A program made the translations under genes and the position numbers. Shown here piece by piece: positions 5,843-54,583 of a stretch of DNA of 64,000 nt (position 1 is its first letter; each line of letters begins with the position of its first letter). The notes beneath the pieces are model-generated. The model did no database searches. It saw only the letters and a program-made list of their open reading frames with translations, and was not told the DNA's origin. Source of the stretch: Candidatus Woesearchaeota archaeon (lineage in GTDB: Archaea; Nanobdellota; Nanobdellia; Woesearchaeales; UBA10216); assembly GCA_016180195.1 (NCBI GenBank), contig JACPBS010000004.1:17485-81484 (forward strand), read 5' to 3'.

Positions 5843-8283
5843 GCCGGGTGGTTGTTCCCCTCGTTCGGGACTATTGCTGCCGCCACCACCTTGTCATTTT
5901 GATCGAGCTTCATTATCCTCACGCCCTGTGTGTTTCGGCCTATCTCGGAGATGTCTTTTGCAGTTATCCTTATGCCTATTCCCTTCTTGCTGATTATCAT
6001 AAGGTCGTCAGATTCGGATACAGATTTTATGACCGCAACCTTTCCATTTCGTTCATTTGTCTGTATGTTGATGACGCCAAGGCCGCCCCTGTTTATGAGC
6101 CTGTACTCGTCAACCTTTGTCCTTTTGCCATATCCATTCTCGGTTATGGTCAGCAGGCTTTTCTCAGCGACTACCATTCCGATTACTTCATCGCCCGATT
6201 TCAGCCTTATTCCCCTCACACCCTGTGATGATCTTCCTGTCTCCCTTACATCGGACTCGTTGAACCTTGCCGCAAGGCCGTTCTTTGTGGCTATTATTAC
6301 TTCCCTGTTCATCTCTGTAAGCTCTACGCCAACAAGCTTGTCGTTTTCATCGAGCGTGATTGATATTATCCCTCCTTTTCTTGGCTTCGAGTATTCTGAA
6401 AGGCTTGTTTTCTTGATAACCCCGTTTTTGGTTGACATTAGAAGCCCGTATTTTCCATCAAACTCCTTTACCGGGATGTATGCTGTTATCTTCTCGTCCT
6501 CAAGGTCCAGCAGGTTGACAATGGCCTTGCCCATTGCAAGCCTTGATGCCTCAGGTATCTTGTAAACCTTCAGCCAGTGGGCTATGCCCTTGTCTGTGAA
6601 GAAGAGTATGTAGCTGTGGGTATTTGCGTAGAATATGCTTTCTACGAAGTCCTGCTCGCCTATTTCCGCGGCTATGATTCCTTTCCCGCCCCTTTTTTGC
6701 TGCCTGTATGCGTCAAGTGACAGCCTTTTAATGTATCCATTGTGGGTTATTGTTACTACAGCATCCTGGGATGGGATAAGGTCCTCAATCTCAAAATCCT
6801 CGACGCCTTCACCTATCTCTGTCCGTCTTGGATCCGAATATTTCTGCTTGAGCTCTGTTGTTTCGTTTTCTATTATCTCGAGTATTCTTTTATCATCTGA
6901 AAGTATCTCCTTCAGGTGGTTTATGAGTTTTGTAAGCTCTTCGAATTCGAGCTTGACTTTTTCCTGCTCAAGCGAAGCGAGTCTTTGGAGCTTTATTTCA
7001 AGTATTGCACTTGCCTGCTTATCAGAAATGCTGTATTGGGAGATGAGCCCTGTCTTCGCAGCAGCTGCATCCCTTGATTTTCTTATCAGGATGATGACAT
7101 TTTCGATGTTCTTTAGCGCGATAATTATTCCTTGAAGTATATGTGCCTTCTCCTCTGCTTTTTTCAATTCGAAGGATGTTCTTCTCCTTACAACATGTTG
7201 CCTGTGCCTTATGAAGCTCTGGATAACTTCCTTCAGGTCAAGGGTCCTGGGCTCATTGTTCTGGAGCGCGATCATCATTATTCCGAATGTTGTCTCCAGC
7301 TTTGTGTGCGTGAACAGCTGGTTCATTACAACTTCCTGGTTTGCATCCTTTTTCAGCTCTATGACTATCCTCAGGCCTTCCTTGTCGCTTTCATCCCTGA
7401 GATCAGATATTCCCTGGATTTTTTTCTCCCGTATCAGGTCTGCCATTTCCTCGATGAGCTGCGATTTGTTGACCTGGAAAGGTATCTCGTTGACTATCAT
7501 TCTTTGCCGATCCTTGTTTTTTTCAACAGATATCTTTGCCCTTATTGTTATTAGGCCCCTGCCTGTCTTGTAAGCCTGCCTGATTCCTGCATTTCCGCAT
7601 ATTATGCCTCCGGTGGGGAAGTCAGGCCCTTTAATGTGATGCATCAGCTCATCCATGCATATCTCCGGGTTTTTGATAGTTGCAATTACGGCATCGGCAA
7701 CCTCCTTGAAATTGTGGGGAGGGATGTTCGTTGCCATTCCCACCGCGATCCCTGAGCTTCCGTTTATCAGCAGGTTAGGTATCTTGGAGGGGAGCACAAG
7801 AGGTTCTTCCAGGCTTGCATCGAAATTCGGGACAAAATCAACTGTCTCTTTTTCAATATCTATTAGTAGCTCCTCCGCTATCCTGGAAAGCCTTGCTTCA
7901 GTATACCTTATTGCGGCTGCTGAGTCGCCGTCTATGCTTCCCCAGTTACCTTGCCCGTCTATGAGGGGGTACCTTAATGAGAAATCCTGTGCCATTCGCA
8001 CCATTGTATCGTACACTGCTGATTCTGAGTGAGGATGGTACTTCCCAAGGCAGTCACCTATTATCCTTGCGCTTTTCCTGTACTGCTTGTTGTGCAACAG
8101 GCCGAGGTCATGGTACATTGCATAAAGCACGCGCCTTTGGACAGGTTTCAGGCCGTCCCTTAAATCTGGAAGTGCTCTTGCAACAAGGACAGACATCGCA
8201 TAGTCCAGGTATGATGTCTTCATTTCCTGGGAGATCTCCCTGTTCAGTATGCTGACCGCTGCTTTAGTAGTTTCAGAATTCAT
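5839..8283 (-). CDS. gyrA: DNA gyrase subunit A
   Basis: 814 aa. Has the [29 protein letters not shown] signature and C-terminal beta-pinwheel repeats. No gyrB adjacent in window. Confidence 0.9.
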
Positions 8284-9278: not shown

Positions 9279-10466
9279 ATGTCTGATCTTGTCATGCATT
9301 CTTTTGAGGCTGGAAGGAGAGGGAAGCCTGATGAGCTGGAAAGCCAGCTGGCAAACCTTATAGGCGCCTATTTCCTGGAAATAGATAACAATTCAAGGTT
9401 TGACTTGAGGGTTTGCGGAGGAATTTCCAATTCCCGTCCTGTTGTCCGTGTTTCAGGCGAGGTTACCGAGTCGCTAATTAGACCTGGGCTAAAAGAAGAC
9501 TTGACAGGGATTATTGCAGCCCATTACAACAAAATCCATCTGACACGGCATGATCCCGAATTTTTCGTTTTAGAAACCAGTTTGGTGAAGCCGCAGTCTT
9601 TTAAGCTGCATTCAAATGGCCACGCAGGTGATTCTGGCAATCCTATTGCAGCTGCTTATTCAGACTCTCCATTAAACCTTCCGTGGGAAAGGTATTTAGC
9701 AGTTTCAATCAGGAATATTATTGATGATATATTCCAGGGTGGTGGCAATATACCGGAATACGTCAAAACTACTTCAGGCAGGTCTATTGAAGGCTTGCTT
9801 GCAGACGGAAAGGTGGGAGTTGATGTGATTTATGAAGGGGCTAAAATAAGAGGTGTTAATGGGATTACAATAGCTGTTCAGCATGAGGAACATTTGAAAA
9901 TAAGTGATCTAAGGAAAAAGCTTGAAAACGTCGTATTCAGCTATTTGAATCTTTTGGGAGATGCATATAAGGTCGATTTTGGGGTGCCTTCTGTTGTAAT
10001 CAACGGGCTTGGTGATTGGAATGTCGGGGGCTGGCAGGTTGATGAGGGCAGCAGGGAGGCAAAGCCATATAGGGACGGATTTGCCAGTTATGGGGTTGTC
10101 GAGGACTCCTTTACCGGGGAGGATCCGAGCAAGCCTTCAGGGACAGGCACCATTATAGCGTGGAATATAGCCAGGCAAATCATGAAAAATGGCTTAGCCG
10201 ATTTCGCAAGAGTTATGCTTGGTTATAGGATTGGGCGTGAGGATGTCATTGTCAATGTTTATACGGGCAATTCAGCCAAGATCTCCCAGGATTCGATTCA
10301 CGAGTGGGTAAATGATAATTTTCAGCTTCGATTGTCTGATGCTGTCCGTGTTTTCGGAATGAAAAGCCCGGAAATTTACAGAAGCATTGCTGAAGCATCG
10401 GATTATTTCCATTCGAGAAGTTTCCCTTGGAACAGGTATTCTTTGGAACGCCGATTAACAGGCTAG
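9279..10466 (+). CDS. S-adenosylmethionine synthetase, archaeal type
   Basis: 395 aa. By recollection, local similarity to archaeal MAT blocks: [14 protein letters not shown] vs [39 protein letters not shown] vs [37 protein letters not shown] vs GKIYNILANLIA. Confidence 0.55.
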   Translation: [395 protein letters not shown]

Positions 10467-12186: not shown

Positions 12187-12819
12187 TTATTGTTTAAGGG
12201 CTTCCAGGGCTTTTGCCGCATCCTTCTCATTCACGACAAAAAGGGTGTCAGTCCAGCAACTCATGCTCTCCACTATATTTATCCCCCTGTCGCCAAATAC
12301 CGAATATAGGTATGCTATCACGCCGGGTGTCTCCTCTATTTCCTGAGGGCTTTTCACTATTATTTGCGTGAGGCCGTTGTTTATTTTGATTATTTCCCTG
12401 CTGAATTGCTTCTTTATGGTTTCAAGGAATTCCGATCCGGTTATTATCGTGACTGTATTCGCCCCTTCTATTATGTGTAATGTTTCCCTTTTCTTTTTTA
12501 TCTCCTTTTCAAGGTCTATCAGGCTGTTATGGTAAAGCCCTTTTTCCATTACAACCGCCATTATCCTGTCTTTTATCTCGATTTTGCTGTTTTTCAGTAT
12601 GTTGATTATCGCTTTTTCCTGCCCTGCCTCTCCCTTCTTTTTAGCAGCATACCTTCTGCATGCTATCAGTATCGCATCAAATTTTTTTATACCCAAATCG
12701 TGGCCAATTTGCCTGGACAGCGCAGAATAGTTTACCAAACCTTTTCTGATGCAGTCCCTGATGCTTGGCCTTTCACAGATGTATTTCTCGGTTAATTTTG
12801 TTATGTTCATAGCTACCAC
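12187..12819 (-). CDS. Putative regulator with N-terminal HTH and C-terminal ACT domain (COG2150-like)
   Basis: 210 aa. C-terminal PGVIAYLYSVFGDRGINIVESMSC is an ACT-like ligand-binding fold. Confidence 0.4.
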   Translation of the reverse strand: MVAMNITKLTEKYICERPSIRDCIRKGLVNYSALSRQIGHDLGIKKFDAILIACRRYAAKKKGEAGQEKAIINILKNSKIEIKDRIMAVVMEKGLYHNSLIDLEKEIKKKRETLHIIEGANTVTIITGSEFLETIKKQFSREIIKINNGLTQIIVKSPQEIEETPGVIAYLYSVFGDRGINIVESMSCWTDTLFVVNEKDAAKALEALKQ

Positions 12820-12847
12820 CGCAACAACTAACCAACAGCTATATAAT

Positions 12848-12892
12848 TGTTTTGTTTAGGACATTTTTGTCTATTTTGTCCTGTTTCAGGTA
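12848..12892 (+). repeat. 45-bp direct repeat, copy 1 (upstream of PIN/UPF0175 cassette), contains inverted repeat AGGACA-N13-TGTCCT
   Basis: attgttttgtttaggacatttttgtctattttgtcctgtttcagg. Its 42/45-identical partner is at 13819..13863. Confidence 0.85.
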
Positions 12893-13539: not shown

Positions 13540-13816
13540 TGTGGTAAGTTTCAGGTTTAAAAGTCACGAGCTTGAGCACATAAATAAGCTATCGGCAGCA
13601 AGAAAAACAGATAAGACGACTGCTGCAAGGGAGCTTATAGAATACGGCTGGATATACTATGTTATTCAGCAATACAAGGAAGGGAAGCTCTCATTGGAAA
13701 GAACGGCAAAGGAGCTGCATATTTCAGTCGGAGAGCTGATTGATTTGCTTGCAGATTTCGGGATAAAATCGCCAATTGCTTTTGAGGATTATCTTGAAGG
13801 TCTGAAGAACATTTGA
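13523..13816 (+). CDS. UPF0175 family antitoxin-like protein
   Basis: 97 aa. C-terminal KLSLERTAKELHISVGELIDLLADFGI matches the UPF0175 signature SLGKAAELAG.S...F...L...GI. Overlaps PIN gene by 17 nt. Confidence 0.6.
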   Translation: MEKMADVVSFRFKSHELEHINKLSAARKTDKTTAARELIEYGWIYYVIQQYKEGKLSLERTAKELHISVGELIDLLADFGIKSPIAFEDYLEGLKNI

Positions 13817-13818
13817 TT

Positions 13819-13863
13819 ATTGTTCTATTTAGGACATTTTTGTCTATTTTGTCCTGTTTCGGG
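13819..13863 (+). repeat. 45-bp direct repeat, copy 2 (2 nt after UPF0175 stop; promoter region of next gene)
   Basis: attgttctatttaggacatttttgtctattttgtcctgtttcggg. Confidence 0.85.
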
Positions 13864-13900
13864 CGATACGCTTTTAAGCACCTATCTAATCCAGAGAAAA

Positions 13901-14476
13901 ATGAAAGCAACCGGAGGATGGGTATACGGGCCAGCTACACGTGAGAGCTGTCAGTACAGGGGCAAGCTCGTGAAGGGTTACGGTTTTGGTAAGGGAGGAC
14001 TAGAGGTATTCGTCTCCGCTAATGAATACGCCCAGGCTGATGGGATTCTCGGATATGTTTACGGTCTAATCCTCAACGAATCAGTTATTGGAGATTCAGG
14101 CAAAAAATGGCAGGTCATGTACTCCGAGCAGTTTAAAACGATCGAGGCAATTCCTAAATCAGACCCGTTTGGTTTTCGAAAAGAGGGGGAAATTTATGGA
14201 AATGCAAGCCTTTCACCCGAGAAATGCTACGGCACCGGGAGCTATCCGTATGGTGGCCCTTATGCATCTCAAGGCGAACTTGAAGATCTTTTGTGGCTGA
14301 GGGATAATTTCCCTGGCTTGCCTATTCCAGAATATGTTGCCAAGGATATGCACAGGTGCTTTTCTAAAGCAATCGAATCCCTCGTCTTCGCCAAAAGCAT
14401 AAAGGTAGTTCGTCTTCCAAAGTTCATGGATGCGGCCATGCTTGATCCATCAGGCATTAAGATATCCTCGAATTAG
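13901..14476 (+). CDS. Hypothetical protein
   Basis: About 191 aa from internal Met (MKATGGWVYGP...). The ORF track start at 13820 would run through the repeat. Gly/aromatic-rich, no recognised motif. Confidence 0.4.
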   Translation: MKATGGWVYGPATRESCQYRGKLVKGYGFGKGGLEVFVSANEYAQADGILGYVYGLILNESVIGDSGKKWQVMYSEQFKTIEAIPKSDPFGFRKEGEIYGNASLSPEKCYGTGSYPYGGPYASQGELEDLLWLRDNFPGLPIPEYVAKDMHRCFSKAIESLVFAKSIKVVRLPKFMDAAMLDPSGIKISSN

Positions 14477-16522: not shown

Positions 16523-16572
16523 AGGGATAGATTTATATCGGCAACTGTTAAGGAAGGAAAAGGTGATTCGCT

Positions 16573-17745
16573 ATCAAGCTTTGGAAAAAGGAAGGGCCTG
16601 ATATCAACAGGGAGATTGAGAAGTTCTGTGTTGGGAACGAGCACTTAATAGATCAAAAGCTGGTGAAATATGACTGCATTGCCAGCATTGCTCACGCAAG
16701 GATGCTTAACAAGATGGGGGTTTTGAGCAGCACCGAGCTAAGGCAGCTTATTTTTGCATTGGAGGAGATCATCAGTCTGGATAATGAAGGGAAATTTTCC
16801 ATAGCTATTGAGCAGGAGGACTGCCACACGGCAATTGAGAATTATCTTACTGGAAAGCTGGGGGATGCTGGAAAGAAGATCCATGCGTGCAGGTCAAGGA
16901 ATGATCAGGTTATTGCAGCATTAAGGCTTTATGAGAAGGAAGAGTTGAGAGAGGTTGGGAAACTTGTACGGAATTTAATTTCGGCAATTACGAACTTTAG
17001 CAGCCGAAACTCAGGGATTCCACTCCCAGGCTACACTCATTTGAGGAAGGCGATGCCTTATTCTATTGGAAGGTGGGCTGAGTCATTCTCAGAGTCTTTG
17101 CAGGATGATATCTTGCTGCTGGATTCTGTTTCAATGCTGATCGATCAGAATCCCTTAGGCAGTGCTGCTGGCTTCGGGGTTCCAATTTTTAAAGTTGACA
17201 GGGAATTCACTGCAAGGCAGCTTAAGTTTGGCAGGGTTCAAAAGAACACTCTGTACGTTCAGAATAGCAGGGGAAAGTTTGAGCTTGCAATTTTGGATGC
17301 CCTCAATCAAGTAATGCTGGATATTAACAAGCTTGCCACAGATATGTGGCTCTTTACTTCTGCAGAATTTGGGTTTATTGAGCTTCCCAAGGAATTCTCA
17401 ATGGGCAGTTCGATAATGCCCCAGAAAGTAAATCCCGACGTGGTTGAGCTTCTGAGGGCAAAGGCAGGCGTGATGAAAGGGCATAGGGACAGCATCAATA
17501 GCATGATCCTGAACCTTCCTTCAGGATATAACGGCGATTTCAAGCTCACAAAGCAGCCTTTGATTGAGGGGTTTGAGCTGGCAAAGTCCTGCATCAGCAT
17601 AATGACTTTGGTGATCGGGGGCTTGAAGGTGAACGAGGGAAGATGCAAGGCCGCAATGACGCCTGAATTGTTTGCAACTGAAAAGGCTCTGGAGCTTGTT
17701 AAGAAGGGAGTTCCTTTTAGGGATGCTTACAGGAAAATGGGTTAG
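16573..17745 (+). CDS. argH: Argininosuccinate lyase; conserved N-terminus lacks a canonical start codon
   Basis: ORF track begins at GTG 16663, but the in-frame upstream translation IKLWKKEGPDINREIEKFCVGNEHLIDQKLVKYDCIASIAHARML matches the ArgH N-terminus (MKLWGGRF...SIAHA.ML). Signature HACRSRNDQVIAALRL is present. An in-frame TGA sits at 16564, and the only codon at the Met position is ATC (16573). Confidence 0.8.
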   Translation: MKLWKKEGPDINREIEKFCVGNEHLIDQKLVKYDCIASIAHARMLNKMGVLSSTELRQLIFALEEIISLDNEGKFSIAIEQEDCHTAIENYLTGKLGDAGKKIHACRSRNDQVIAALRLYEKEELREVGKLVRNLISAITNFSSRNSGIPLPGYTHLRKAMPYSIGRWAESFSESLQDDILLLDSVSMLIDQNPLGSAAGFGVPIFKVDREFTARQLKFGRVQKNTLYVQNSRGKFELAILDALNQVMLDINKLATDMWLFTSAEFGFIELPKEFSMGSSIMPQKVNPDVVELLRAKAGVMKGHRDSINSMILNLPSGYNGDFKLTKQPLIEGFELAKSCISIMTLVIGGLKVNEGRCKAAMTPELFATEKALELVKKGVPFRDAYRKMG

Positions 17746-17840
17746 GCTGTTATTTCTTTTAATGAAACTTTTTTTAGGTCCTGGCAAAAATTATCGATTT
17801 TTTCAGGATTGAAATTCCTGGAATAAAAACTTCAATAAAA

Positions 17841-18057
17841 ATGTTGTGTCAAGTACCCCGGGCTAAAGCCCAGGGCGTGTTCTTGAGCACACAAATCAAG
17901 CTTTGCTTGATTGTGCCCATTTGAGCTATGCTCAAATTGGGTCTCAGAAATTGTCAAGCTTTGCTTGATTGTGCCCATTTGAGCTATGCTCAAATTGGGT
18001 CTCAGAAATTGCTCGTCCTTACTGCGCACTAAAGTGCCACAGATTACGTCGAGAGCA
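17841..18057 (+). repeat. Hairpin-rich intergenic repeat, family A copy 1 (contains a perfect 58-bp tandem duplication, 17896-17953 / 17954-18011)
   Basis: About 150 bp near-identical to 40241..40405. Built from consecutive palindromes: GGGCTaaAGCCC, AATCAAGCtttGCTTGATT, CCCATTTGAGCtatGCTCAAATTGGG, GCACTaaAGTGC. Confidence 0.85.
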
Positions 18058-18113
18058 ATTTCTGACATTTCAATTCTGAATTTTCCCATCAATTCCACAA
18101 CAGTATTAAGGAT

Positions 18114-19481
18114 GTGAAACATTTATCTTTTTGCATGGCAAGTTTTGGTATCGATACAATCATCAGGCGTTATTATCCATTTGCTCTTGGCGCTCTTGTT
18201 TTTATCATGTCCAATTGCTCCCCTTATAAGCAATTAACTCCTGTTTCTTCAGCTGTGGAAAACTACACCGTACCGCCTGCTAATACAGTTCCAAGCGAGA
18301 CCCCAACTCCTTTTTACTCTCTTTTTGCACCTTTTCTTTTTGATGGACCCCCTTCACCTACATCTACTCCGGAGAAAAAGCTCGTTTTTTCCCCCCAGTT
18401 TTATAACGGAAGCAGGCACGTCACGCCCACGGTTACACCTTCAATTACACCAAAACCTGTTCCGCCAACACCAACACAAGCTCCAAGCCTTTGTTATGAC
18501 ATGAATGGAAAAAGCCCTTCTGAGAAATCTGAATACCTTGTTAAGCTGTCCTCTCCTGTCGAATTCAACCAGAAGAGGGTTGGGATGAACCACAACTTTC
18601 GTGCCCCGACAGGGGGTTTCAACCCATTACATCAGGGCGCTCCAAATTCGGGGTGGGCAAGGTTTGTTTTCATCGTCAATGAGGGTAACCTGGATGAGGC
18701 TTTTGGTTTTTATGACCTGTATTTTTATGATTTGGCAATATTCAGGATAAAGCCGCTGGTTGTATTCAATACCCAGTCGCATATAAGCAACTATTGGTCT
18801 CACCTTAATTCCAAAGCTGAGTGGGATGAGTATGTTGCCGGCTACACAGATCAGCTTGGAAAACTTCTTGACAGGTATGGGTATGCAATAGCAGGAATTG
18901 AGCTGGGGAATGAGAATGATTTCCATAGTTCATACATCCCGCCTGAGAGGTATGCTGCCCTGCTCAAGAGCGCATCTGCAAAGATTGATGATTTTAACTC
19001 AAGAAAATCTTCGCGTATTTTGAAGATTTCAGGAGGCCTGGTAACCGGCTCGAGTGCTTTGGAATATCTTATGCATGTGAGGGATGCAATTGGCGGAGAT
19101 TTGCCTGTTGACGTAATTGCATACCATCTTTATGGGTACAGGATTGATGGTTACAATTTTAAATATCCTGAATGGGGATGGAATGGTTCGCCTGAAAGCG
19201 TGAATTCGATCCTGGATTCCTTTAGGAATGCGGGGTTTAGAGAGCCTTTCATGATAACTGAGGCTGGCATCCAGGAAAAGAATCCGGCAAGGCAAAAGGA
19301 CAGGGCAGATTGGTATGATGCCCTGGCAAGATACCTGTTCGAGTATAGAAATGATGTGGACTCTCTGATTTTTTTCGCAGGCTCGGACATTAATGAGGAC
19401 GGGTTTGGCTTTGTAGACACAGCATGCAATGTGTACAGGGAAATGTGGGATGGTTATCTTGGACTTTTAGAAAGGTATTGA
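18114..19481 (+). CDS. Secreted/lipid-anchored glycoside hydrolase, clan GH-A (GH5-like) TIM barrel with Pro/Thr-rich linker
   Basis: 455 aa. N-terminal hydrophobic segment with Cys (FIMSNCSP), PT-rich linker, acid/base-like motif GIELGNEND and nucleophile-like motif MITEAG. Confidence 0.5.
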   Translation: MKHLSFCMASFGIDTIIRRYYPFALGALVFIMSNCSPYKQLTPVSSAVENYTVPPANTVPSETPTPFYSLFAPFLFDGPPSPTSTPEKKLVFSPQFYNGSRHVTPTVTPSITPKPVPPTPTQAPSLCYDMNGKSPSEKSEYLVKLSSPVEFNQKRVGMNHNFRAPTGGFNPLHQGAPNSGWARFVFIVNEGNLDEAFGFYDLYFYDLAIFRIKPLVVFNTQSHISNYWSHLNSKAEWDEYVAGYTDQLGKLLDRYGYAIAGIELGNENDFHSSYIPPERYAALLKSASAKIDDFNSRKSSRILKISGGLVTGSSALEYLMHVRDAIGGDLPVDVIAYHLYGYRIDGYNFKYPEWGWNGSPESVNSILDSFRNAGFREPFMITEAGIQEKNPARQKDRADWYDALARYLFEYRNDVDSLIFFAGSDINEDGFGFVDTACNVYREMWDGYLGLLERY

Positions 19482-19484
19482 GTT

Positions 19485-20402
19485 TTAAGATTTCTCGAAG
19501 AAGCCTGCAAAATGCTGTGATTCTTGAACAGCCTTCTCAAGGTTTCCTGTTGCGAATATCTCAACAAGCGCAGATAGTTTTTTCAGTTGGGTCAGGTAAT
19601 CTCCATGTGCCTCGCTTGTTCTTTTGAGTTGCATTTCAAGCCCCTCATAAAAGCGGATTAAGCCATAATCATCCGTTTCTTTTATTGTCTCTTTGGGAAG
19701 CCTTCCATTTACAAACATACCTACTCTGGCATCGTAATCCATATTCAACGCTTCAGGATACAATGCATGCGTTTGTATCCTTCCATAGCCATCCCTGACT
19801 TGGATTGCCCATTGCCTGTTCCCATCAACTTTTTCATTTCTTTCTGCAGAAACAGCCTTGACATACATCTCAAGCATGGTTTCAGCCACGTTTTCAAATG
19901 CGTGGGCTCCATTCAATTGTGCACTTCTTGAAAAACACGATTGGTTGGCAAGTTTTCTTCCTGAACCTTCAATCGCGCCTCCGACAGCCTCAATAAAATA
20001 ATCGCAAAAATCAAGCGTGACCACCTCAAGGGGGTATTTTGCCTCGCCTATTTTCGGGAACAAAAAATGTTCGATACGTTCCCTTTTAGGTCCGGATATC
20101 ACCAGCTTTTGTGCCTCCAGGTATAGATTCATTTTCTTATAAATGCCCTTGATGCGTTTCGCAAATTGGGTTGGAGTCCTGATTGATCCCCAATGGCGCA
20201 TGCTAACTGCAGCTTCCGCTGTTATCCTGATGAACCCTGTTCCAGCGAGCAGGTAAGAGCCATCCGAAAAGACCTTTTGCCCAACTTCTATTTTAGACGG
20301 GTCGTTTACAAATATCACCCTACTGTCTGAAACCATAACTACTGAATCCAGGGATTTTCCATTATGCTGTATTGAGGCCTTCGATGCAATAACAATAGTC
20401 AT
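19485..20402 (-). CDS. Hypothetical protein (N-terminus MTIVIASKAS... weakly reminiscent of Ntn-hydrolase/proteasome-like Thr N-terminus)
   Basis: 305 aa. No firm motif. Convergent with the GH gene. Confidence 0.35.
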   Translation of the reverse strand: MTIVIASKASIQHNGKSLDSVVMVSDSRVIFVNDPSKIEVGQKVFSDGSYLLAGTGFIRITAEAAVSMRHWGSIRTPTQFAKRIKGIYKKMNLYLEAQKLVISGPKRERIEHFLFPKIGEAKYPLEVVTLDFCDYFIEAVGGAIEGSGRKLANQSCFSRSAQLNGAHAFENVAETMLEMYVKAVSAERNEKVDGNRQWAIQVRDGYGRIQTHALYPEALNMDYDARVGMFVNGRLPKETIKETDDYGLIRFYEGLEMQLKRTSEAHGDYLTQLKKLSALVEIFATGNLEKAVQESQHFAGFFEKS

Positions 20403-20533
20403 TAGCTATTTAGAAGTGGTGATTTTAATATAAATTTTGTTTTGGATTTTTTACGGCATTCATTTCCAAAAAAAAAGCATTGGGTCCATGAAACAGGGAA
20501 AATTTTTAAAGTTCAATCTTATTTTCGCTTTCT

Positions 20534-21463
20534 TTGATGGGTTTCAAAAACAGGGACATTATTTCTATAAGGGACTTTTCCAAGGCAGAGTTGTTGCACG
20601 TGCTTGATGTCGCGGCGGATATCGAGAGGAACGGAACAGGCTCTTTTTCGCAGCTGCTGAAGGGTAAAATCCTGGCCTCCCTTTTTTTTGAGCCTTCGAC
20701 AAGGACGCGGCTTAGTTTTGAGGCTTCAATGCACCGCTTGGGGGGAAGCGTTATCGGGTTTTCTGAGCCGGAGACAACATCTATCGTTAAAGGTGAGACT
20801 GCTCATGACACCATCAGGATTGTTGATGGTTATTGTGATATAATGGTAATGAGGCATCCTGAGTCAGGTTCTGCGACAAAAGCCGCCGAAGCAGCAAAAA
20901 ATCCTGTGATTAACGCGGGCGACGGTGCTAATGAGCACCCTACCCAGACATTTGTTGACCTGTATACGATTAGAAAAACAAAAGGTAGCCTTGAAAGGCT
21001 CAGTATAGGTTTCTTAGGGGATCTTAAGTATGGACGGACTGTTCACAGTCTTTCCCACGCACTGTCTCACTTCAGTCCTGATTTGTATTTCATTTCACCC
21101 GAATCATTGGCTCTGCCTGATAGGCTCATAAGGGAGCTTGAATCATCCAGGATCAAGATTGTGGAGGAGGAGAACCTTTCAAGGGTCAGTAGGCAGCTTG
21201 ACATACTTTATGTTACCCGTATCCAGAAGGAACGGTTCCTTGATGAGGGGGAGTATGCAAAGGTCAAGGGATTTTACAAGCTCGACAAGGAATTCCTGAA
21301 ATCTGCAAAGCCGGACTTGAAGATTCTCCATCCCCTTCCAAGGGTGGATGAGATCAATCCGCGTCTTGATTCAGAGAAGCAAAGCATTTACTTTGAGCAG
21401 GCACATAATGGAATCCCTGTAAGAATGGCCCTGCTTGGTTTGGTATTGGGCTGCTTCGAATAA
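20534..21463 (+). CDS. pyrB: Aspartate carbamoyltransferase catalytic subunit
   Basis: 309 aa. Has STRTR (FFEPSTRTRLSFE), HPTQ and HPLP motifs. Confidence 0.9.
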   Translation: MMGFKNRDIISIRDFSKAELLHVLDVAADIERNGTGSFSQLLKGKILASLFFEPSTRTRLSFEASMHRLGGSVIGFSEPETTSIVKGETAHDTIRIVDGYCDIMVMRHPESGSATKAAEAAKNPVINAGDGANEHPTQTFVDLYTIRKTKGSLERLSIGFLGDLKYGRTVHSLSHALSHFSPDLYFISPESLALPDRLIRELESSRIKIVEEENLSRVSRQLDILYVTRIQKERFLDEGEYAKVKGFYKLDKEFLKSAKPDLKILHPLPRVDEINPRLDSEKQSIYFEQAHNGIPVRMALLGLVLGCFE

Positions 21464-21502
21464 ATAACTTTATATATTATTTCCGGCTTTTTCTTTTTTT
21501 TA

Positions 21503-22567
21503 ATGGCTTATATTGAATTAGAGGACAAAACTAGGTTTGAAGGCTTCTCTTTTGGTGCAGATAACTCGGTTTCAGGCGAGGTAGTGTTCAACACTGGTAT
21601 GGTGGGATATCCGGAAAGCCTTACGGATCCCAGCTACAGGGGCCAGATTCTTGTTCTTACTTATCCTTTGGTTGGCAATTACGGTGTTCCCAGAAACGAT
21701 ATTGACCGGTTAGGAATTCCAAGGAATTTCGAGTCAGGAAAAATCCAGGTTAGCGGCCTTATTGCCGCGGATTATTCAGGCAACTATAGCCATTGGAACG
21801 CTGTGAAAAGCCTCTCGCAATGGCTGAATGAGGAAGGCATTCCTGCTTTGACCGGGATTGATACCCGTATGCTGACAAAGAAGCTTCGTGAAAAAGGGGT
21901 TATGCTTGGGAAGATCGTGAATTTCGGCGACGTGAAACTTGATGACCCTAATTTGAGGAATCTTGTGGATGAAGTTTCAGTTAGTGAAAAAATAACATAT
22001 AGCTGCGGCGGAAGAAAAAAAGTTCTTCTGGTTGACTGCGGCGCCAAGAACAACATAACAAGATGCCTGATAAAAAGAAACTGCGGGGTGATAAAAGTGC
22101 CCTGGGATTATGATTTTCTTGCGGATAAAGAGCTTGATTTCGACGGCATCGTGATAAGTAACGGCCCTGGAGACCCTAAGATGTGCAGGAAGACAATAAG
22201 AAATGTTTCAGCTGCGATGAAAAAGGAAATCCCGATATTCGGAATATGCCTTGGAAACCAGCTGCTTGCATTGGCAGCGGGCGGAGACACTTACAAGCTG
22301 AAGTACGGGCATAGGAGCCAGAACCAGCCATGCATAAATAAGGAGACCGGGCGCTGCTACATAACTTCGCAAAACCACGGGTTCGCTGTTGACATGAAAA
22401 CGATGCCATCTGGATGGGATGAATTTTTTGTGAATGGGAATGACGGAACAAACGAGGGAATGATGCATAAGGATAAGCCATTCATGTCTTGCCAGTTTCA
22501 CCCGGAAGCTTCCTGCGGTCCGGTTGATACGGAATTCCTTTTTGATGATTTTTTGAGGTTGCTATGA
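21503..22567 (+). CDS. carA: Carbamoyl-phosphate synthase small (glutaminase) subunit
   Basis: 354 aa. Type-1 glutamine amidotransferase catalytic Cys in GICLGNQLLALA. C-terminal HPE. Confidence 0.9.
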   Translation: MAYIELEDKTRFEGFSFGADNSVSGEVVFNTGMVGYPESLTDPSYRGQILVLTYPLVGNYGVPRNDIDRLGIPRNFESGKIQVSGLIAADYSGNYSHWNAVKSLSQWLNEEGIPALTGIDTRMLTKKLREKGVMLGKIVNFGDVKLDDPNLRNLVDEVSVSEKITYSCGGRKKVLLVDCGAKNNITRCLIKRNCGVIKVPWDYDFLADKELDFDGIVISNGPGDPKMCRKTIRNVSAAMKKEIPIFGICLGNQLLALAAGGDTYKLKYGHRSQNQPCINKETGRCYITSQNHGFAVDMKTMPSGWDEFFVNGNDGTNEGMMHKDKPFMSCQFHPEASCGPVDTEFLFDDFLRLL

Positions 22568-23337
22568 CAAGCATTGCGAGGCTTTACGAAAAGAACGCAT
22601 TTATGCTTCCACCAATGAAGAGTCTGATTAGGCAGAAAATAATGAAAGGCGACTTTGTTGTAGATGCAGGTTGTGGAACTGGAGTGTATTCCGATATTCT
22701 AAGGAAGAAAGTGGGAGAACGAGGCAAGCTACTTGCAGTTGACAGGGACAAATCAATGGTTCAGTATTGCAAAAAGAAGCATCCAGACGTCGAAACTAAG
22801 CAGTTGGAAATAGAAAAACTGTCAAGGATTGTTAAAAACGCGGATGTTGTTTTTGCGAGCCTCGTCCTTCAGTTTTCAAGGCCCGAAGCAATAGCTGAAA
22901 TTCGAAAGGTGCTTAAGAAAGGCGGGAAACTTATATTCTCAATACCTCTTTACAGGACGGGGATAAACATTGCTATTGACAAACAAACCAAAAATTTTAT
23001 GGATGAACTGATAAGCAGGATGAATGAACAGGCAAAAAACATCGGCTGCAATAAGAAGGTTGCAGTAGAATATTCAAACACCAGGGAACAGCAGTTAAGG
23101 AAACTTCTAAATAAGAGCAGGTTTCGGATTTTGGAGTGGGTTGTTGTTCCGGTTGAGAAATCTGATTTCAATTTCATGAAAGAGTATTATAAGATTCCCT
23201 GGAGAAGCAGGAAAATGCTGGATCTTCCGTTCAGGTTAAGGTACAAGATTATTACTGATGCAATGAAGCTTGCTTTCAAAAAATATCCCAAATTCATGAT
23301 AACCCGTTATTATTTGTTTGGAGTTGCCCAAAAATGA
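22564..23337 (+). CDS. Class I SAM-dependent methyltransferase (Methyltransf_11-like)
   Basis: 257 aa. Motif I VVDAGCGTGVYS. Inserted between carA and carB. Confidence 0.6.
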   Translation: MTSIARLYEKNAFMLPPMKSLIRQKIMKGDFVVDAGCGTGVYSDILRKKVGERGKLLAVDRDKSMVQYCKKKHPDVETKQLEIEKLSRIVKNADVVFASLVLQFSRPEAIAEIRKVLKKGGKLIFSIPLYRTGINIAIDKQTKNFMDELISRMNEQAKNIGCNKKVAVEYSNTREQQLRKLLNKSRFRILEWVVVPVEKSDFNFMKEYYKIPWRSRKMLDLPFRLRYKIITDAMKLAFKKYPKFMITRYYLFGVAQK

Positions 23338-23843
23338 GTGAGGAAATGATTGATGTTGTGGATGATGAAGATAATATTGTCGGGATAGCTGATAGGGGAA
23401 AAATAATTGAAAAGGGTTTAACCCACAGGACATCATTTGTCATAGTTCTTGATCATTTCAAGAGGTTCCTCATCCAGAAAAGGTCGAGTTCAAAGAAGAT
23501 ATTTCCTGGATGCCGGGATTTGGGTGCTGCGGAAACCGTGTCAAGCGGTGAGTCTTACGAGCATGCTGCAATAAGGGCTTTGGAAGAGGAGCTTGGGATA
23601 AAAGGGTATACTGTGAATGAATTAACTATGCTTTTCGAAGTGAGATTCAGGTCCCCTTCTTACAGAACAAATACGCGGGTTTTCAAGCTGATGTACACCG
23701 GCCGAATAAGTATCCAGACAGACGAGGTGGATGAAATAAGGAATGCAAGCTGTTCTGAAATAGACGATCTGATTTCCAAAGGTGTTTTTGCGCCTGATGG
23801 TGCATTGATATTCAAAAGGATCCAAAATGGAAGAATTGATTGA
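23334..23843 (+). CDS. Nudix hydrolase (paralog 1)
   Basis: 169 aa. Degenerate Nudix box GESYEHAAIRALEEELGI. Confidence 0.65.
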   Translation: MSEEMIDVVDDEDNIVGIADRGKIIEKGLTHRTSFVIVLDHFKRFLIQKRSSSKKIFPGCRDLGAAETVSSGESYEHAAIRALEEELGIKGYTVNELTMLFEVRFRSPSYRTNTRVFKLMYTGRISIQTDEVDEIRNASCSEIDDLISKGVFAPDGALIFKRIQNGRID

Positions 23844-23872
23844 TTTTGTGGATGAAATAGTTAAGCTTTCAG
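23827..23872 (+). pseudogene. Truncated 5' fragment of a third Nudix paralog, interrupted by repeat B1
   Basis: Encodes MEELIDFVDEIVKLSG, homologous to the N-termini MSEEMIDVVDDEDNIV and MEEMVDIVDEKDKV of the flanking Nudix genes. Overlaps the stop of Nudix 1 in operon fashion, then runs into the repeat at about 23873. Confidence 0.35.
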
Positions 23873-24100
23873 GTAACAAAAATCCGCCGCTCGGAGCTAT
23901 CCTCTCACTTCAATGGCGGATCCCAATTCGAACAGAGTTCAAATGGGCCAAATCACAAAGTGATTTGGGTTTTGGAACAATACACAAATTGAGCAAAGCT
24001 CAATTGTGCCCAATCGCAAAACGATTTGGGAATTTCGCCCTAAAGGGCGGAATTTCGCCCTAAAGGGCGGGGCTTTGAACCCAAGGCGAAATTTATTTGT
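23873..24100 (+). repeat. Hairpin-rich intergenic repeat, family B copy 1 (contains 20-bp tandem duplication 24031-24050 / 24051-24070)
   Basis: Palindromes ATCCGCC...GGCGGAT, CCAAATCACaaaGTGATTTGG, ATTGAGCaaaGCTCAAT, CCCAATCGcaaaaCGATTTGGG, CGCCCtaaaGGGCG. Shares a 28-nt block with 33623-33648 and a 30-nt block (inverted) with 39543-39572. Confidence 0.8.
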
Positions 24101-32889: not shown

Positions 32890-33530
32890 TGTCAGGCGAA
32901 AAAATTGCAGCATTGCTTTTAAATTCGGGTGCTGTTATGCTCAGGCCGAAGCAGCCATTCAGGTATGCCTCTGGTCTTTCGGGCCCTATCTACTGTGATA
33001 ACAGGATTCTTCTTTCAAGGCCTCATGAAAGGAAGGTGATTGTAAATGCCTTCATTGAGTTGCTAGAGGGGGATAAGCCAGATGTGATTGCGGGTGTTGC
33101 CACAGGAAGCATTGCCTGGGCTGCAATGGTTGCGGATAAGCTTGGGAAGCCGATGGTTTACATTAGGAAGGAATCGAAGGATCATGGTAAGGGCAACCTT
33201 ATTGAGGGTGTTCTTGATTCAGGGCAGGAAGCTGTCGTCGTTGAGGATTTGGTTACTACAGGAGGCAGTTCCCTTTCAGCGGTTTCTGCTGCAAGAAATC
33301 ACGGTGCTGTTGTCAAGAAATGCCTCGCCATCTTCACTTACGGGCTTGAGTCCTCGAAAAAAGGTTTTAACAATGCAGGATGTCAGCTGATTACCCTTAC
33401 TGATTTTGACACCCTTGTCAAGGTTGCATTTAAAAGTGGTTTCATTAGCAGTGATGACCGCGCCATCCTGATGGAATGGAAAAGCGATCCTGAAGGGTGG
33501 GGAAGAACAGCATCCCAAAATAGGTTTTGA
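32886..33530 (+). CDS. pyrE: Orotate phosphoribosyltransferase
   Basis: 214 aa. PRPP-binding motif VVVEDLVTTGGS. Confidence 0.8.
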   Translation: MMSGEKIAALLLNSGAVMLRPKQPFRYASGLSGPIYCDNRILLSRPHERKVIVNAFIELLEGDKPDVIAGVATGSIAWAAMVADKLGKPMVYIRKESKDHGKGNLIEGVLDSGQEAVVVEDLVTTGGSSLSAVSAARNHGAVVKKCLAIFTYGLESSKKGFNNAGCQLITLTDFDTLVKVAFKSGFISSDDRAILMEWKSDPEGWGRTASQNRF

Positions 33531-33559
33531 CTATTTTTGGGTTTGTTGCAGCGTTTTTC

Positions 33560-33700
33560 TCTTAGTGCCAACAACGGTTGGCGAGCCAATGGATGCCCCA
33601 TCCGGGGTGGCGAGAAGCTCCCAAATTGAGCAAAGCTCAATTGTGCCCGAAGCAAAAAAGCGTCCAACCATTATTGTTGGACAATCAGAAATTTCACTCA
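33560..33700 (+). repeat. Hairpin-rich intergenic repeat, family B copy 2 (partial)
   Basis: Contains aaattgagcaaagctcaattgtgccc (33623-33648), identical to 23986-24011, plus hairpins GCCAACaacgGTTGGC, CCCCatccGGGG and GTCCAACcattattgTTGGAC. Confidence 0.7.
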
Positions 33701-39530: not shown

Positions 39531-39572
39531 ACCTTTAGGGCAAGGATAGCTCCGAGCGGCGGATTTTGTTAC
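39531..39572 (-). repeat. Family B repeat fragment (inverted), abutting HepT stop codon
   Basis: Reverse complement gtaacaaaatccgccgctcggagctatcct matches 23873-23903. Followed by a CCTAAAGG hairpin. Also contains the T-loop-like string GGTTCAAATCC (39517-39527). Confidence 0.65.
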
Positions 39573-39844
39573 TTTCTCCTTTCCAAATTCGACAATACCT
39601 TTTTTAGTTTCTGCTTCAGGTTTGGAATTTCTTTTTTAATCGCTGCCCAAACAAGATCATAGTCAGTTCCAAAATACGCGTGGATTAACCTGTCTCTCAT
39701 TCCGGACATGGATTTCCATTGGATTTCTTTGTATTGGTTTTTTATTTCTTCAGGCATGTATTTGGCAGCTTCTCCGATTATCTCGAATTTCCTTATAACT
39801 GCACTTGAAGTTTTCTCATCATTCTTCAGCTCCTCAAGGGTCAT
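39569..39844 (-). CDS. HepT-like toxin (DUF86, HEPN superfamily)
   Basis: 91 aa. HEPN R-x4-H-x-Y motif in MRDRLIHAYF. Confidence 0.7.
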   Translation of the reverse strand: MTLEELKNDEKTSSAVIRKFEIIGEAAKYMPEEIKNQYKEIQWKSMSGMRDRLIHAYFGTDYDLVWAAIKKEIPNLKQKLKKVLSNLERRK

Positions 39845-39915
39845 TTCTCCAATAAAGCTTTGAATCGAATCAATTGCTTACAAGATGTCCTTTACGAAAA
39901 GTTTAGAATCCCTTT

Positions 39916-40228
39916 TCATATCATGATAACCCCTTTGGTGATGCTATCTTTTAATTCAGGCCTTATTCCTCTTTCCGAAACGACATCCACCTTCATTTTT
40001 AGTTTTTCTTCAAGATAATTGCCTAAACCATTAAAATCAAAGAGGGTTGCATCGGTGTTAAACTTAACGAGAATATCTAAATCGCTGTTTTTTTTGTTGG
40101 CCTCTTGCAAAAGATCCGAAGATGCCAAGTTCCTTAACTTTATATCTTTTCTTTAGTTTAGGCATGTTTGATTCCAACGTATTTCGAATTTGTTGTAGAT
40201 TCTTCATTTTCACTGTTTTATCGTACAT
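39916..40228 (-). pseudogene. MNT-type minimal nucleotidyltransferase (antitoxin partner of HepT) disrupted by a frameshift in an A8 homopolymer
   Basis: One frame encodes MYDKTVKMKNLQQIRNTLESNMPKLKKRYKVKELGIFGSFARGQQKK. The adjacent frame continues NSDLDILVKFNTDATLFDFNGLGNYLEEKLKMKVDVVSERG.... The GS-x-ARG and DLD motifs are split across a T8 run at 40088-40095 (A8 on the coding strand). Seven A would give an intact 103-aa MNT. Confidence 0.7.
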
Positions 40229-40240
40229 TACTTGTTATAA

Positions 40241-40405
40241 AAATCTTGCTATGTGTCAAGAACCCGGGCTAAAGCCCAGGGCGTGTTCTTGAGCACACAA
40301 ATCAAGCTTTGCTTGATTGTGCCCATTTGAGCTATGCTCAGATTGGGTCTCAGAAATTGCTCGTCCTTACTGCGCACTAAAGTGCCACAGATTGCGTCGA
40401 GAGCA
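40241..40405 (+). repeat. Hairpin-rich intergenic repeat, family A copy 2
   Basis: Near-identical to 17841-18057 but with a single copy of the 58-bp unit. Lies in the purF upstream region. Confidence 0.85.
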
Positions 40406-40479
40406 CAAATAAACGCTTGGCGTTTATTGTGCAATAAACCGAAGCATTTTCCGCGTTGTATTAGGGGTGTTTTTGATTT

Positions 40480-54490: not shown

Positions 54491-54583
54491 TTTGTGATTG
54501 TAAGCGATTGATATTTAAATGCTTTACCAATTTTTGGTATAAGTTTACCATATTTTGGTATTGATTCATGTTTTGCCTGAAGT

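What the first reader, a model, noticed from the sequence alone, without database searches (positions are those of the whole stretch)
17841..24100. Family of hairpin-rich intergenic repeats with compensatory stem substitutions (A copies 17841-18057 and 40241-40405; B copies 23873-24100, 33560-33700, 39531-39572)
Five intergenic elements are built from strings of short perfect palindromes. They share flanking blocks but differ in stem sequence in a base-pair-preserving way. Family A has acaaatCAagctttgctTGattgtgccc (17891-17918), and family B has acaaatTGagcaaagctCAattgtgccc (23984-24011). The flanks acaaat / gtgccc are identical. The 8-bp stem changes CA to TG on one arm and TG to CA on the other, and the loop changes ttt to aaa. 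The following hairpin also keeps the outer CCCA...TGGG while changing its inner stem (tttgagc/gctcaaa vs atcg/cgat). This covariation argues that the elements act as structured RNA, or as a palindromic protein-binding DNA site, under selection rather than being random debris. They sit downstream of argH, pyrE and purH and upstream of purF, all in an otherwise compact operonic region. They may be a small structured ncRNA, a terminator/processing module or a MITE-like element.
Basis: seen in the sequence. Interest (0 to 1): 0.75.

Follow-up and report, generated by a model that had tools for sequence, protein, structure and literature searches.

The report
Mobile double-hairpin repeats in an archaeon
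The intergenic hairpin strings are real and are built from a small palindromic DNA module (two abutting hairpins, each with one bulged base) that has been inserted here and there in the genomes of some Woesearchaeota archaea, much like the REP/BIME repeats of bacteria, rather than being a conserved regulatory RNA of these genes.

Summary
The window comes from a Candidatus Woesearchaeota MAG, and four intergenic gaps in its arginine/pyrimidine/purine operon hold mosaics of hairpins.

The recurring core is a unit: a 3-bp foot CNC/GNG, one bulged A, a variable 6-9 bp stem starting A[A/G/T]T, and a 3-7 nt loop. Units come as abutting inverted pairs ("double hairpins", DH), so both DNA strands show the same pattern and fold equally well.

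Covariation is strong: 99% of pair cells are paired, and 8 of 10 pairs change on both sides. A search fixing only the feet returned, among archaeal contigs, only copies with complementary but different stems.

The elements behave as inserted DNA:
- They are absent from syntenic loci of relatives.
- They vary in presence between close relatives.
- One 51-nt DH exactly interrupts one copy of a duplicated sequence, with no target duplication.
- DHs sit nested in the loops of other units.
- Two composite copies are 98% identical.
- They occur in co-directional, convergent and divergent gaps.
- Orthologous copies show uncompensated decay, and wobble pairs are almost absent.

Best reading: REP/BIME-like selfish palindromic DNA. 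The mobilising enzyme was not found, and an RNA role is not excluded.

The parts
17835..18066 (+). Composite element A1. Modules in order: AT-rich leader ATAAAAAT; hairpin X; double hairpin; 58-nt internal duplication; long closing hairpin Z.
17850..17885 (+). Hairpin X: CAAGTAC-CCGGGC-TAAA-GCCCAGG-GCGT-GTTCTTG. TAAA-loop module, present in A1 and A2.
17890..17915 (+). Unit U(+): CAC-A-AATCAAGC-TTT-GCTTGATT-GTG, with a bulged A on the 5' arm.
   Evidence: 34.3 bits
17916..17941 (-). Unit U(-): reads CCC-ATTTGAGC-TAT-GCTCAAAT-T-GGG on the + strand, with a bulged T on the 3' arm. It abuts the previous unit, and the two form a double hairpin.
   Evidence: (33.2 bits)
17954..17999 (.). Second, 5'-truncated copy of the double hairpin, created by the 58-nt tandem duplication. 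It holds a partial U(+) at 17954-17973 and a U(-) at 17974-17999.
18000..18066 (+). Module Z: a 13-bp outer stem (TCAGAAATTGCTC / GAGAGCAATTTCTGA) enclosing the GCAC-TAAA-GTGC hairpin.
23873..24100 (+). Composite element B1. Modules in order: ATCCGCC...GGCGGAT hairpin; two double hairpins; tandem CGCCC-TAAA-GGGCG hairpins.
23922..23968 (.). Degenerate double hairpin. It holds a U(+) with one C.A mismatch (23922-23947) and a perfect hairpin with no bulge (23948-23968).
   Evidence: 22 bits
23983..24030 (.). Double hairpin: U(+) CAC-A-AATTGAGC-AAA-GCTCAATT-GTG (23983-24008) plus U(-) CCC-AATCG-CAAAA-CGATT-T-GGG (24009-24030).
24031..24070 (+). Two tandem copies of a 20-nt unit (AATTTCGCCCTAAAGGGCGG), each holding a TAAA-loop hairpin. 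Independent short-read assemblies of this organism break here.
33514..33541 (-). Unit-like hairpin CCC-AAAATAG-GTTTTGA-CTATTTT-T-GGG. It overlaps the stop codon of the phosphoribosyltransferase (pyrE-like) gene.
33560..33700 (+). Composite element B2. A homologous composite in another Woesearchaeota contig (L048) lacks the unit at this position.
33620..33645 (+). Unit U(+) with a mixed foot, CCC...GTG (one C.T mismatch), and the same inner stem-loop as the unit at 23983.
   Evidence: 24.7 bits
39543..39572 (-). Reverse-complement fragment of the left edge of B1 (AACAAAATCCGCCGCTCGGAGCTATCCT). It directly follows the HepT stop codon.
39569..40230 (-). HepT toxin gene plus a decayed nucleotidyltransferase antitoxin gene. 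This is a variable cassette between purH and purF, flanked by the repeat modules.
40241..40403 (+). Composite element A2: hairpin X (40257-40291), a double hairpin, and a truncated Z module. It is 98% identical to A1.
40296..40347 (.). Double hairpin of A2: U(+) at 40296-40321 and U(-) at 40322-40347. The latter has one T.G pair.
40404..40431 (+). Solitary unit CAC-A-AATAAACGC-TTG-GCGTTTATT-GTG, a third inner-stem variant on the same foot.

Best explanation
The elements are mosaics of selfish palindromic DNA modules, the archaeal counterpart of bacterial REP/BIME (REPIN-like) repeats.

The basic module is a roughly 25-nt imperfect palindrome: foot CNC/GNG, one extrahelical A, then a variable stem and loop. 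It normally occurs as an abutting inverted pair of about 50 nt, a double hairpin.

Shown here: these modules are gained and lost as discrete pieces without target duplication. They land in intergenic DNA and in the loops of pre-existing hairpins. They accrete with other small hairpins into 150-230 nt composites, which can themselves be copied (A1/A2).

Inferred: they are moved as folded single-stranded DNA by a structure-specific enzyme acting in trans. A HUH/Y1 transposase of the RAYT or IS200/IS605 kind is the obvious candidate. It would read the conserved foot and bulged base and tolerate any stem sequence that pairs.

Under this reading the 'compensatory' stem differences arise in two ways. 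Only copies with an intact hairpin are propagated, and arm-to-arm templated correction probably keeps palindromes perfect. They would not reflect selection on an RNA that serves the flanking arg/pyr/pur genes. Any effect on transcripts (3'-end protection, operon punctuation) would be a by-product.
For: Host:
- Window proteins are NCBI Woesearchaeota entries on a 170.5-kb contig. The archaeal PurP gene is present.

Unit pattern:
- Of 54 bulged hairpins, 42 have a CAC, CCC or CGC foot and 47 have a bulged A. The inner stem starts AAT, AGT or ATT in 42.
- A U(+) is always directly followed by a U(-).
- Both strands of a double hairpin fold with the same energy, -17.2 kcal/mol.

Structure without ascertainment bias:
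- A search fixing only the feet found 9 archaeal hits, all with complementary but different stems, plus 2 bacterial non-palindromic hits.
- Among foot-only matches in 278 kb, 35 of 49 have the first four inner pairs all Watson-Crick. Adding short-stem and large-loop copies gives about 44 of 49 by my reading of the list. Only about 3 are non-palindromic.
- 99.1% of 425 pair cells are paired, 8 of 10 pairs change on both sides, and 0 of 500 shuffles reach this.

Insertion behaviour:
- The covariance model finds 49 units in the window and carrier loci. It finds none below E=0.5 in 76 kb of the syntenic operon of relatives with 72-74% identical PurF.
- The double hairpin after the FeS-assembly gene in L002 is absent at the orthologous site of genomes with 92-95% identical FtsZ.
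- In L022, a 36-nt direct repeat has one intact copy and one copy split exactly by the 51-nt double hairpin, with at most 1 nt duplicated.
- Double hairpins sit nested in the loop of an outer unit in L011, twice.
- A1 and A2 are 98% identical at unlinked sites.
- A homologous composite in L048 lacks the unit present in B2.
- Elements occur in co-directional, convergent and divergent gaps.

DNA rather than RNA:
- No one-sided (wobble) changes apart from 3 apical cells.
- Orthologous copies L022 and L025 differ by uncompensated substitutions.
- There is no Rfam match.

Literature:
- REP dimers with different stems, 1-5 bp spacing, complementary changes, and insertion into palindromes are described for bacteria (PMC3733652).
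Against: - No transposase, integrase or HUH gene lies in the window or in about 430 kb of held sequence. The whole genomes could not be searched, so the mobilising enzyme is purely inferred.
- RAYT-type proteins have been reported only from bacteria (PMC6006769, Table 1).
- Unlike classical REPs, almost every copy has its own stem, so recent burst amplification is evident only for the A composite.
- In the window all units lie in a co-directionally transcribed operon. They would be transcribed there, so an RNA-level effect cannot be excluded.
- The empty-versus-filled site evidence rests on one locus (L022/L025).
Confidence: 0.55

Rival explanations
1. The hairpins act as structured RNA. They would be transcribed within the operon mRNA and bind an archaeal RNA-binding protein or block exonucleases. 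This would punctuate or stabilise segments of the polycistronic transcript, or element A would be a small RNA gene.
For: - All window units lie between co-directional genes of one long operon.
- The predicted folds are very stable.
- The invariant bulged A and the foot suggest specific recognition.
- Both A copies are preceded by ATAAAAAT, which could be a TATA-like box.
- L001 and L002 carry a double hairpin 5-11 nt after a stop codon.
Against: - The elements are absent from the same gaps in relatives with conserved gene order.
- They are also found between divergent genes, 16-45 nt upstream of start codons.
- The pattern is reverse-complement symmetric, which an RNA motif has no reason to be.
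- Wobble pairs are virtually absent.
- One orthologous pair shows uncompensated decay.
- There is no Rfam family match. The only weak hit is HEARO at 24.7 bits against a gathering score of 83.
Confidence: 0.17
2. The double hairpins are recombination sites of the integron attC type, or another tyrosine/serine recombinase site. Small cassettes such as toxin-antitoxin pairs would be inserted at them into the operon.
For: - The logic resembles attC: conserved foot, extrahelical base, variable and sometimes branched apex.
- The HepT/MNT cassette lies between a B fragment and A2.
- The purH-purF gap holds different small genes in each relative.
Against: - There is no RYYYAAC/GTTRRRY core.
- The stems are about 11 bp, not the 20 or more of attC.
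- Units come in inverted pairs.
- No integrase lies in the window.
- Relatives have variable cassettes at the same gaps without any units.
- The other cassette in the window is flanked by unrelated 75-nt direct repeats.
Confidence: 0.07
3. The units are double-stranded DNA binding sites, or cruciform-forming sites, for a chromosomal protein (gyrase, a nucleoid protein or a regulator). They would be maintained by the host for chromosome organisation, as proposed for some BIMEs.
For: - The pattern has dyad symmetry.
- The location is strictly intergenic.
- The sequence is conserved only at the feet.
Against: - Presence varies between close relatives, and copies decay.
- A duplex-binding protein would not require the inner arms to be complementary to each other.
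- The single-base bulge has meaning only in an extruded or single-stranded form.
Confidence: 0.1
4. The hairpins are chance or compositional debris with no shared origin.
For: Other hairpins in the same gaps share no sequence.
Against: - There is 5- to 27-fold enrichment over shuffles.
- The foot alone predicts inner complementarity.
- Covariance-model scores reach 35 bits.
Confidence: 0.01

Closest known systems
Bacterial REP sequences, their inverted dimers (BIMEs/REPINs) and RAYT transposases
   Same: - Imperfect palindromes of about 25 nt with a stem irregularity.
- Strictly intergenic.
- Occur as closely abutting inverted dimers whose partners may have different stems.
- Family members show complementary changes.
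- Clustered into mosaics with other motifs.
- Found inserted within other palindromes.
- No target-site duplication.

(PMC3733652 and PMC6006769, compared.)
   Different: - No GTAG or CGTC tag. The conserved part is the paired foot CNC/GNG plus a bulged A.
- The host is a DPANN archaeon.
- Nearly every copy has a unique stem, rather than hundreds of near-identical copies.
- No RAYT gene was seen, though whole genomes were not searchable.
Subterminal hairpins of IS200/IS605 elements and their miniature derivatives (PATEs)
   Same: - Imperfect hairpins with an extrahelical base, read as single-stranded DNA.
- No inverted terminal repeats and no target duplication.
- The family is present in archaea (PMC6006769).
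   Different: - The left-end and right-end hairpins of these elements are in direct orientation on one strand (own knowledge of IS608).
- Here the two hairpins are inverted relative to each other and abut with no cargo.
- No conserved flanking tetranucleotide is evident.
Integron attC sites
   Same: Function depends on the folded single strand, with a conserved foot, extrahelical bases and a variable terminal structure (own knowledge).
   Different: - The core sequences are absent.
- The units are much shorter.
- They are paired and nested.
- No integrase is present.
Double-hairpin elements and palindromic repeat families of organelle genomes (Allomyces mitochondria, Volvox organelles)
   Same: Small mobile modules made of hairpins that colonise intergenic DNA and each other (own knowledge for Allomyces; PMC2670323 abstract for Volvox).
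   Different: The sequence is unrelated and the host is different. No homology is implied.

Membership tests
REP / BIME (RAYT-associated) | A short imperfect palindrome repeated in intergenic regions, often as inverted dimers | tested here: met
   49 units were found in 135.5 kb. All are intergenic, and a U(+) is directly followed by a U(-).
REP / BIME (RAYT-associated) | A conserved GT[AG]G (or CGTC) tetranucleotide at the foot of the hairpin | tested here: not met
   The feet are CAC, CCC or CGC, paired with GTG, GGG or GCG. The flanks are not conserved.
REP / BIME (RAYT-associated) | A cognate tnpA-REP (RAYT) gene in the genome, itself flanked by REPs | not testable with these tools
   None was found in the window or in about 430 kb of held loci. 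The complete MAGs could not be scanned.
REP / BIME (RAYT-associated) | High copy number of near-identical copies within one genome | tested here: inconclusive
   Only A1/A2 (98%) and the 27-mer shared by B1/B2 are near-identical. Most units have unique stems. Only 64 kb plus 9 kb of this genome was seen.
IS200/IS605-derived miniature elements (PATE) | Two subterminal hairpins in the same orientation on one strand, with specific cleavage tetranucleotides | tested here: not met
   The hairpins are always in inverted orientation with the bulges outward. No conserved flank is present.
Classical MITE | Terminal inverted repeats plus a target-site duplication | tested here: not met
   The L022 filled-versus-intact repeat shows at most 1 nt duplicated. 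A1 and A2 have no terminal inverted repeats or duplications. The only 'terminal repeats' are the 7-nt feet of the double hairpin itself.
Integron attC | RYYYAAC / GTTRRRY cores, a single long hairpin, and a linked integron integrase | tested here: not met
   The cores are absent, the stems are about 11 bp, and no integrase is in the window.
Any curated RNA family (Rfam 15) | A match at or above the gathering score | tested here: not met
   There were 0 matches in the window and 19 loci. The best sub-threshold match is HEARO at 24.7 bits against 83.
Transcription-terminator or 3'-UTR element | A fixed position downstream of genes, in the sense orientation | tested here: not met
   The units are also found between divergent genes, close to start codons.

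The most novel reading that the evidence does not exclude
The double hairpins are the substrates of an undescribed archaeal system. A structure-specific single-strand DNA enzyme would recognise a 3-bp foot plus one extrahelical adenine and move or copy 50-nt double hairpins, preferentially into the loops of existing hairpins. That would be the first REP/RAYT-like repeat-enzyme pair in Archaea, and its recognition rule would differ from GTAG/CGTC REPs. The hyper-variable yet perfectly paired stems might further indicate an arm-templated diversification or correction step.
Probability: 0.3. Interest if true: 0.7.

Novelty: new variant of a known kind. Interest (0 to 1): 0.55.

Why it matters
DPANN archaea have small, streamlined genomes and almost no experimentally studied mobile DNA. 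A self-propagating 50-nt double hairpin with a simple recognition rule would matter in several ways:
- It would add a REP-like class to Archaea.
- It would explain why assemblies of these genomes break at such sites.
- It would give a searchable signature (model R1) for finding the enzyme that moves it.
- It cautions that clean base-pair covariation among dispersed repeats does not by itself show an RNA gene.

Tried and rejected
- **tRNA or tRNA-fragment origin.** ARAGORN finds none in the window and only one unrelated tRNA in L003.
- **Known RNA family.** Nothing reaches a gathering score. The weak HEARO hit is far below threshold and there is no IscB nearby.
- **Viral or plasmid origin.** Two generalised double-hairpin patterns give 0 hits in IMG/VR.
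- **Cross-phylum distribution.** MAG labels said Methanosarcinales and Thaumarchaeota. The 'Methanosarcinales' contig L002 encodes an FtsZ 95% identical to Woesearchaeota FtsZ, so the label is unreliable. I claim only Woesearchaeota-like hosts.
- **argH truncated by A1.** Rejected. DPANN ArgH homologues are all about 391-398 aa and align over the full ORF.
- **Metagenome scan with the exact-feet pattern.** Only 3 real copies among 24 hits, because the feet vary (CAC, CCC, CGC), so the pattern was too narrow.
- **Fetching more of this genome.** Only about 9 kb more was obtained upstream, and it contains no clear further unit (one weak 15.6-bit match). Two look-ups failed on start-codon choice and one on a protein returned by the homology search.


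Full report
**What is in the window**

The quoted sequences are present at the stated coordinates. The window belongs to a Candidatus Woesearchaeota MAG. Four of its proteins are exact NCBI entries (MBI2133089, MBI2133094, MBI2133120, MBI2133130) on a 170.5-kb contig. It encodes the archaeal PurP enzyme.

The region is a long, mostly co-directional arginine/pyrimidine/purine operon: argG, argH, pyrB, carA, carB, pyrD/K/C/E, pyrF, purA, purH, purF, purD and onward (synteny). Hairpin-rich elements fill four gaps:
- after argH (A1, 17835-18066);
- between two NUDIX genes upstream of carB (B1, 23873-24100);
- after the pyrE-like gene (B2, 33560-33700);
- between purH and purF (a B fragment, a decayed HepT/MNT toxin-antitoxin pair, A2 at 40241-40403, and a solitary unit at 40404-40431).

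A1 and A2 are 98% identical over 104 nt. A1 carries a 58-nt internal tandem duplication. The predicted folds are far more stable than shuffles for three of the four elements, with z-scores of -8.2, -6.5 and -4.5. B2 is weaker at -2.3.

**The repeating unit**

A census of hairpins with one bulged base was run on the window plus related loci. It found 54 in 135.5 kb, against 2-10 in Markov shuffles. Of these, 42 have a CAC, CCC or CGC foot, and 47 of the 54 have a bulged A. This defines the unit:
- foot C-N-C paired with G-N'-G;
- one bulged A;
- an inner stem of 6-9 bp beginning A[A/G/T]T;
- a loop of 3-7 nt.

Units occur as pairs. A unit on the + strand is directly followed, with 0 nt spacing or a 2-4 nt overlap, by a unit on the - strand, so the two bulges face outward. 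The reverse complement of such a double hairpin (DH) obeys the same pattern. Both strands fold with identical energy, for example -17.2 kcal/mol for the A1 DH.

**Is the covariation real?**

My hairpin census required pairing, so it cannot test pairing. Two tests did not require it.
1. The genome-collection scan fixed only the feet (CACAAAT..ATTGTGCCCA..TTGGG). It returned 11 loci. All 9 archaeal ones had perfectly complementary inner arms of different sequence, and the 2 bacterial ones were non-palindromic chance hits.
2. Foot-only matches in 278 kb gave 49 hits. In 35 of them the first four inner pairs are all Watson-Crick. With short-stem and large-loop copies added, about 44 are paired by my reading, and about 3 are non-palindromic.

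On a covariance-model alignment of 49 hits (44 distinct), 99.1% of 425 pair cells are paired. Eight of 10 pairs show changes on both sides, in 112 cells. No shuffle or slid structure approaches this. That alignment is fitted to the model, so it leans towards the structure.

The same inner stem-loop, AATTGAGC-AAA-GCTCAATT, occurs with three different feet: CAC/GTG (window 23983), CCC/GGG (L006) and the mixed CCC/GTG (window 33620). The mixed form is a half-converted intermediate.

**Evidence that these are inserted DNA modules**

- **Absent from relatives.** The syntenic operon of related Woesearchaeota (PurF 72-74% identical; L036-L039, 76 kb) has no unit. The best model hit there is E=0.54, against 49 hits at E of 0.002 or lower in carriers.
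- **Variable between close relatives.** In L002 a DH lies 5 nt after the stop codon of a FeS-assembly gene upstream of ftsZ. Genomes with 92-95% identical FtsZ lack it at that site, while the rest of the intergenic region aligns.
- **A precise indel.** In L022 a 36-nt sequence (GACnTTTTTAGCGAAAAA|GCTCAACCAAAAAACA) is directly repeated. One copy is intact. The other is interrupted exactly by the 51-nt DH, with at most 1 nt duplicated. The related contig L025 shows the same arrangement.
- **Nesting.** Twice in L011, the second hairpin of a DH carries another complete DH in its loop. A third outer unit, seen in the flank of the L005 match, encloses two inner hairpins that lack the CNC foot.
- **A unit missing from a homologous composite.** A composite homologous to B2 in another genome (L048) lacks the unit that B2 has, and instead carries a DH at a different point.
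- **All types of gap.** DHs lie in co-directional, convergent and divergent gaps, some 16-45 nt upstream of start codons.
- **Decay.** The L022 and L025 copies differ by uncompensated stem substitutions. L008 and L034 share flanks and one hairpin, but the apex of the other hairpin is wholly replaced and is still a palindrome.

**DNA or RNA?**

The reverse-complement symmetry, the near absence of wobble pairs, the occurrence in promoter-side gaps and the lack of positional conservation all point to the DNA level. Only 3 apical cells of 425 show a one-sided change.

No Rfam family reaches threshold in the window or 19 loci. The best sub-threshold hit is HEARO at 24.7 bits against a gathering score of 83.

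In this window every unit lies inside a transcribed operon. A secondary effect on mRNA cannot be excluded and was not testable.

**Mechanism**

The following steps are shown:
- discrete gain and loss;
- no target duplication;
- nesting in loops;
- copying of composites;
- a foot and bulge that are conserved while the stem is free to vary as long as it pairs.

The following steps are inferred. A trans-acting enzyme specific for folded single-stranded DNA recognises the foot and the extrahelical base. The precedents are RAYT on REPs and IS200/IS605 TnpA on its imperfect hairpins. The perfect pairing is maintained because only intact hairpins are propagated, possibly helped by arm-templated correction.

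No such enzyme gene lies in the window or in about 430 kb of held sequence. The complete genomes could not be searched. According to PMC6006769, only the IS200/IS605 subclass of Y1 transposases is known in Archaea, and the REP-associated subclasses are bacterial.

**Comparison with known systems**

The closest match is bacterial REP/BIME. PMC3733652 describes REP dimers 1-5 bp apart, heterodimers with different stems, complementary changes within families, and REP dimers inserted inside palindromes. All of these are seen here.

The defining GTAG/CGTC tag is absent, and the cognate transposase is untested. I therefore do not file the element as a member. It works like a REP/BIME but is a distinct variant in a DPANN archaeon.

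It fails the tests for three other families:
- PATE/IS200-type miniature elements, because the hairpins are inverted, not direct;
- classical MITEs, because there is no TSD and there are no TIRs;
- attC, because there are no cores and no integrase.

**Host range**

MAG labels suggested Methanosarcinales and Thaumarchaeota hosts. The 'Methanosarcinales' contig L002 encodes an FtsZ 95% identical to Woesearchaeota proteins. Only a Woesearchaeota-like host range is supported. No copy was found in viral contigs.

**Verdict**

The elements are REP/BIME-like mobile palindromic DNA with a new recognition pattern, and the mobilising enzyme is unknown. Interest is moderate (0.55), and the finding is a new variant of a known kind.

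Noticed in passing
window 53338-53412 and 54573-54647 (with genes at 53422-54003 and 53915-54490 on the - strand): Two 75-nt direct repeats (95% identical) flank a HEPN-like plus nucleotidyltransferase gene pair inserted after purQ. It looks like a small integrated cassette with duplicated attachment sequence, and it is unrelated to the double hairpins.
   Followed up: partly
window 39569-40230 (- strand): A HepT toxin gene is followed by a nucleotidyltransferase antitoxin gene broken by several stop codons. The same purH-purF gap holds different small genes or toxin-antitoxin pairs in each related genome, so it is an insertion hotspot.
   Followed up: partly
L002 4256-4560 (reverse strand); L047 ~9700-10000; L048 ~6600-6868; L050 ~9750-10000: The region upstream of ftsZ keeps two hairpins with the identical loop TTGGCG and different stems (GTTTTG/CAAAAC and CACTTG/CAAGTG) in all four Woesearchaeota genomes. 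This may be a conserved operator or leader structure.
   Followed up: no
L001-L003 (CAYJXD, CAZDCW) and L008 (JACPBJ): MAGs labelled 'Methanosarcinales' and 'Thaumarchaeota' carry the elements. The L002 FtsZ is 95% identical to Woesearchaeota FtsZ, so at least that bin label is wrong or the contig is mis-binned.
   Followed up: partly
window ~24074 (L043-L046 start there): Short-read assemblies of this organism from four sequencing runs all break inside the tandem TAAA-loop hairpins of B1. The repeats fragment assemblies.
   Followed up: no
window 16570-17745: argH is the short DPANN form of about 395 aa that ends right after GVPFRDAYRKMG. Its reading frame continues upstream of the first GTG (…KLWKKEG…) with no canonical start codon in sight.
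   Followed up: partly
window 12843-12890 and 13816-13863: A 48-nt repeat (92% identical) contains an AGGACA...TGTCCT inverted repeat. It lies in the intergenic DNA beside two genes, just upstream of the divergently oriented ORF 12187-12819 (- strand) and overlapping the start of ORF 13820-14476 (+ strand).
   Followed up: no
window 17861-17870, 18026-18037, 24038-24047, 24058-24067, 40267-40276: A second recurrent module: 4-5 bp GC-rich stems closed by the same TAAA loop (GGGC-TAAA-GCCC, GCAC-TAAA-GTGC, CGCCC-TAAA-GGGCG). It again shows different stems with a constant loop.
   Followed up: no
L022 1309-1326, L007 ~2497-2512 (reverse strand), L011 1771-1796 and 1940-1967: Hairpins with the foot CTTTT(T)...(A)AAAAG recur next to double hairpins. 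L022 and L007 have the same CTTTTTAGC(G)AAAAA immediately 5' of the same DH variant. This is a possible preferred target or companion module.
   Followed up: no
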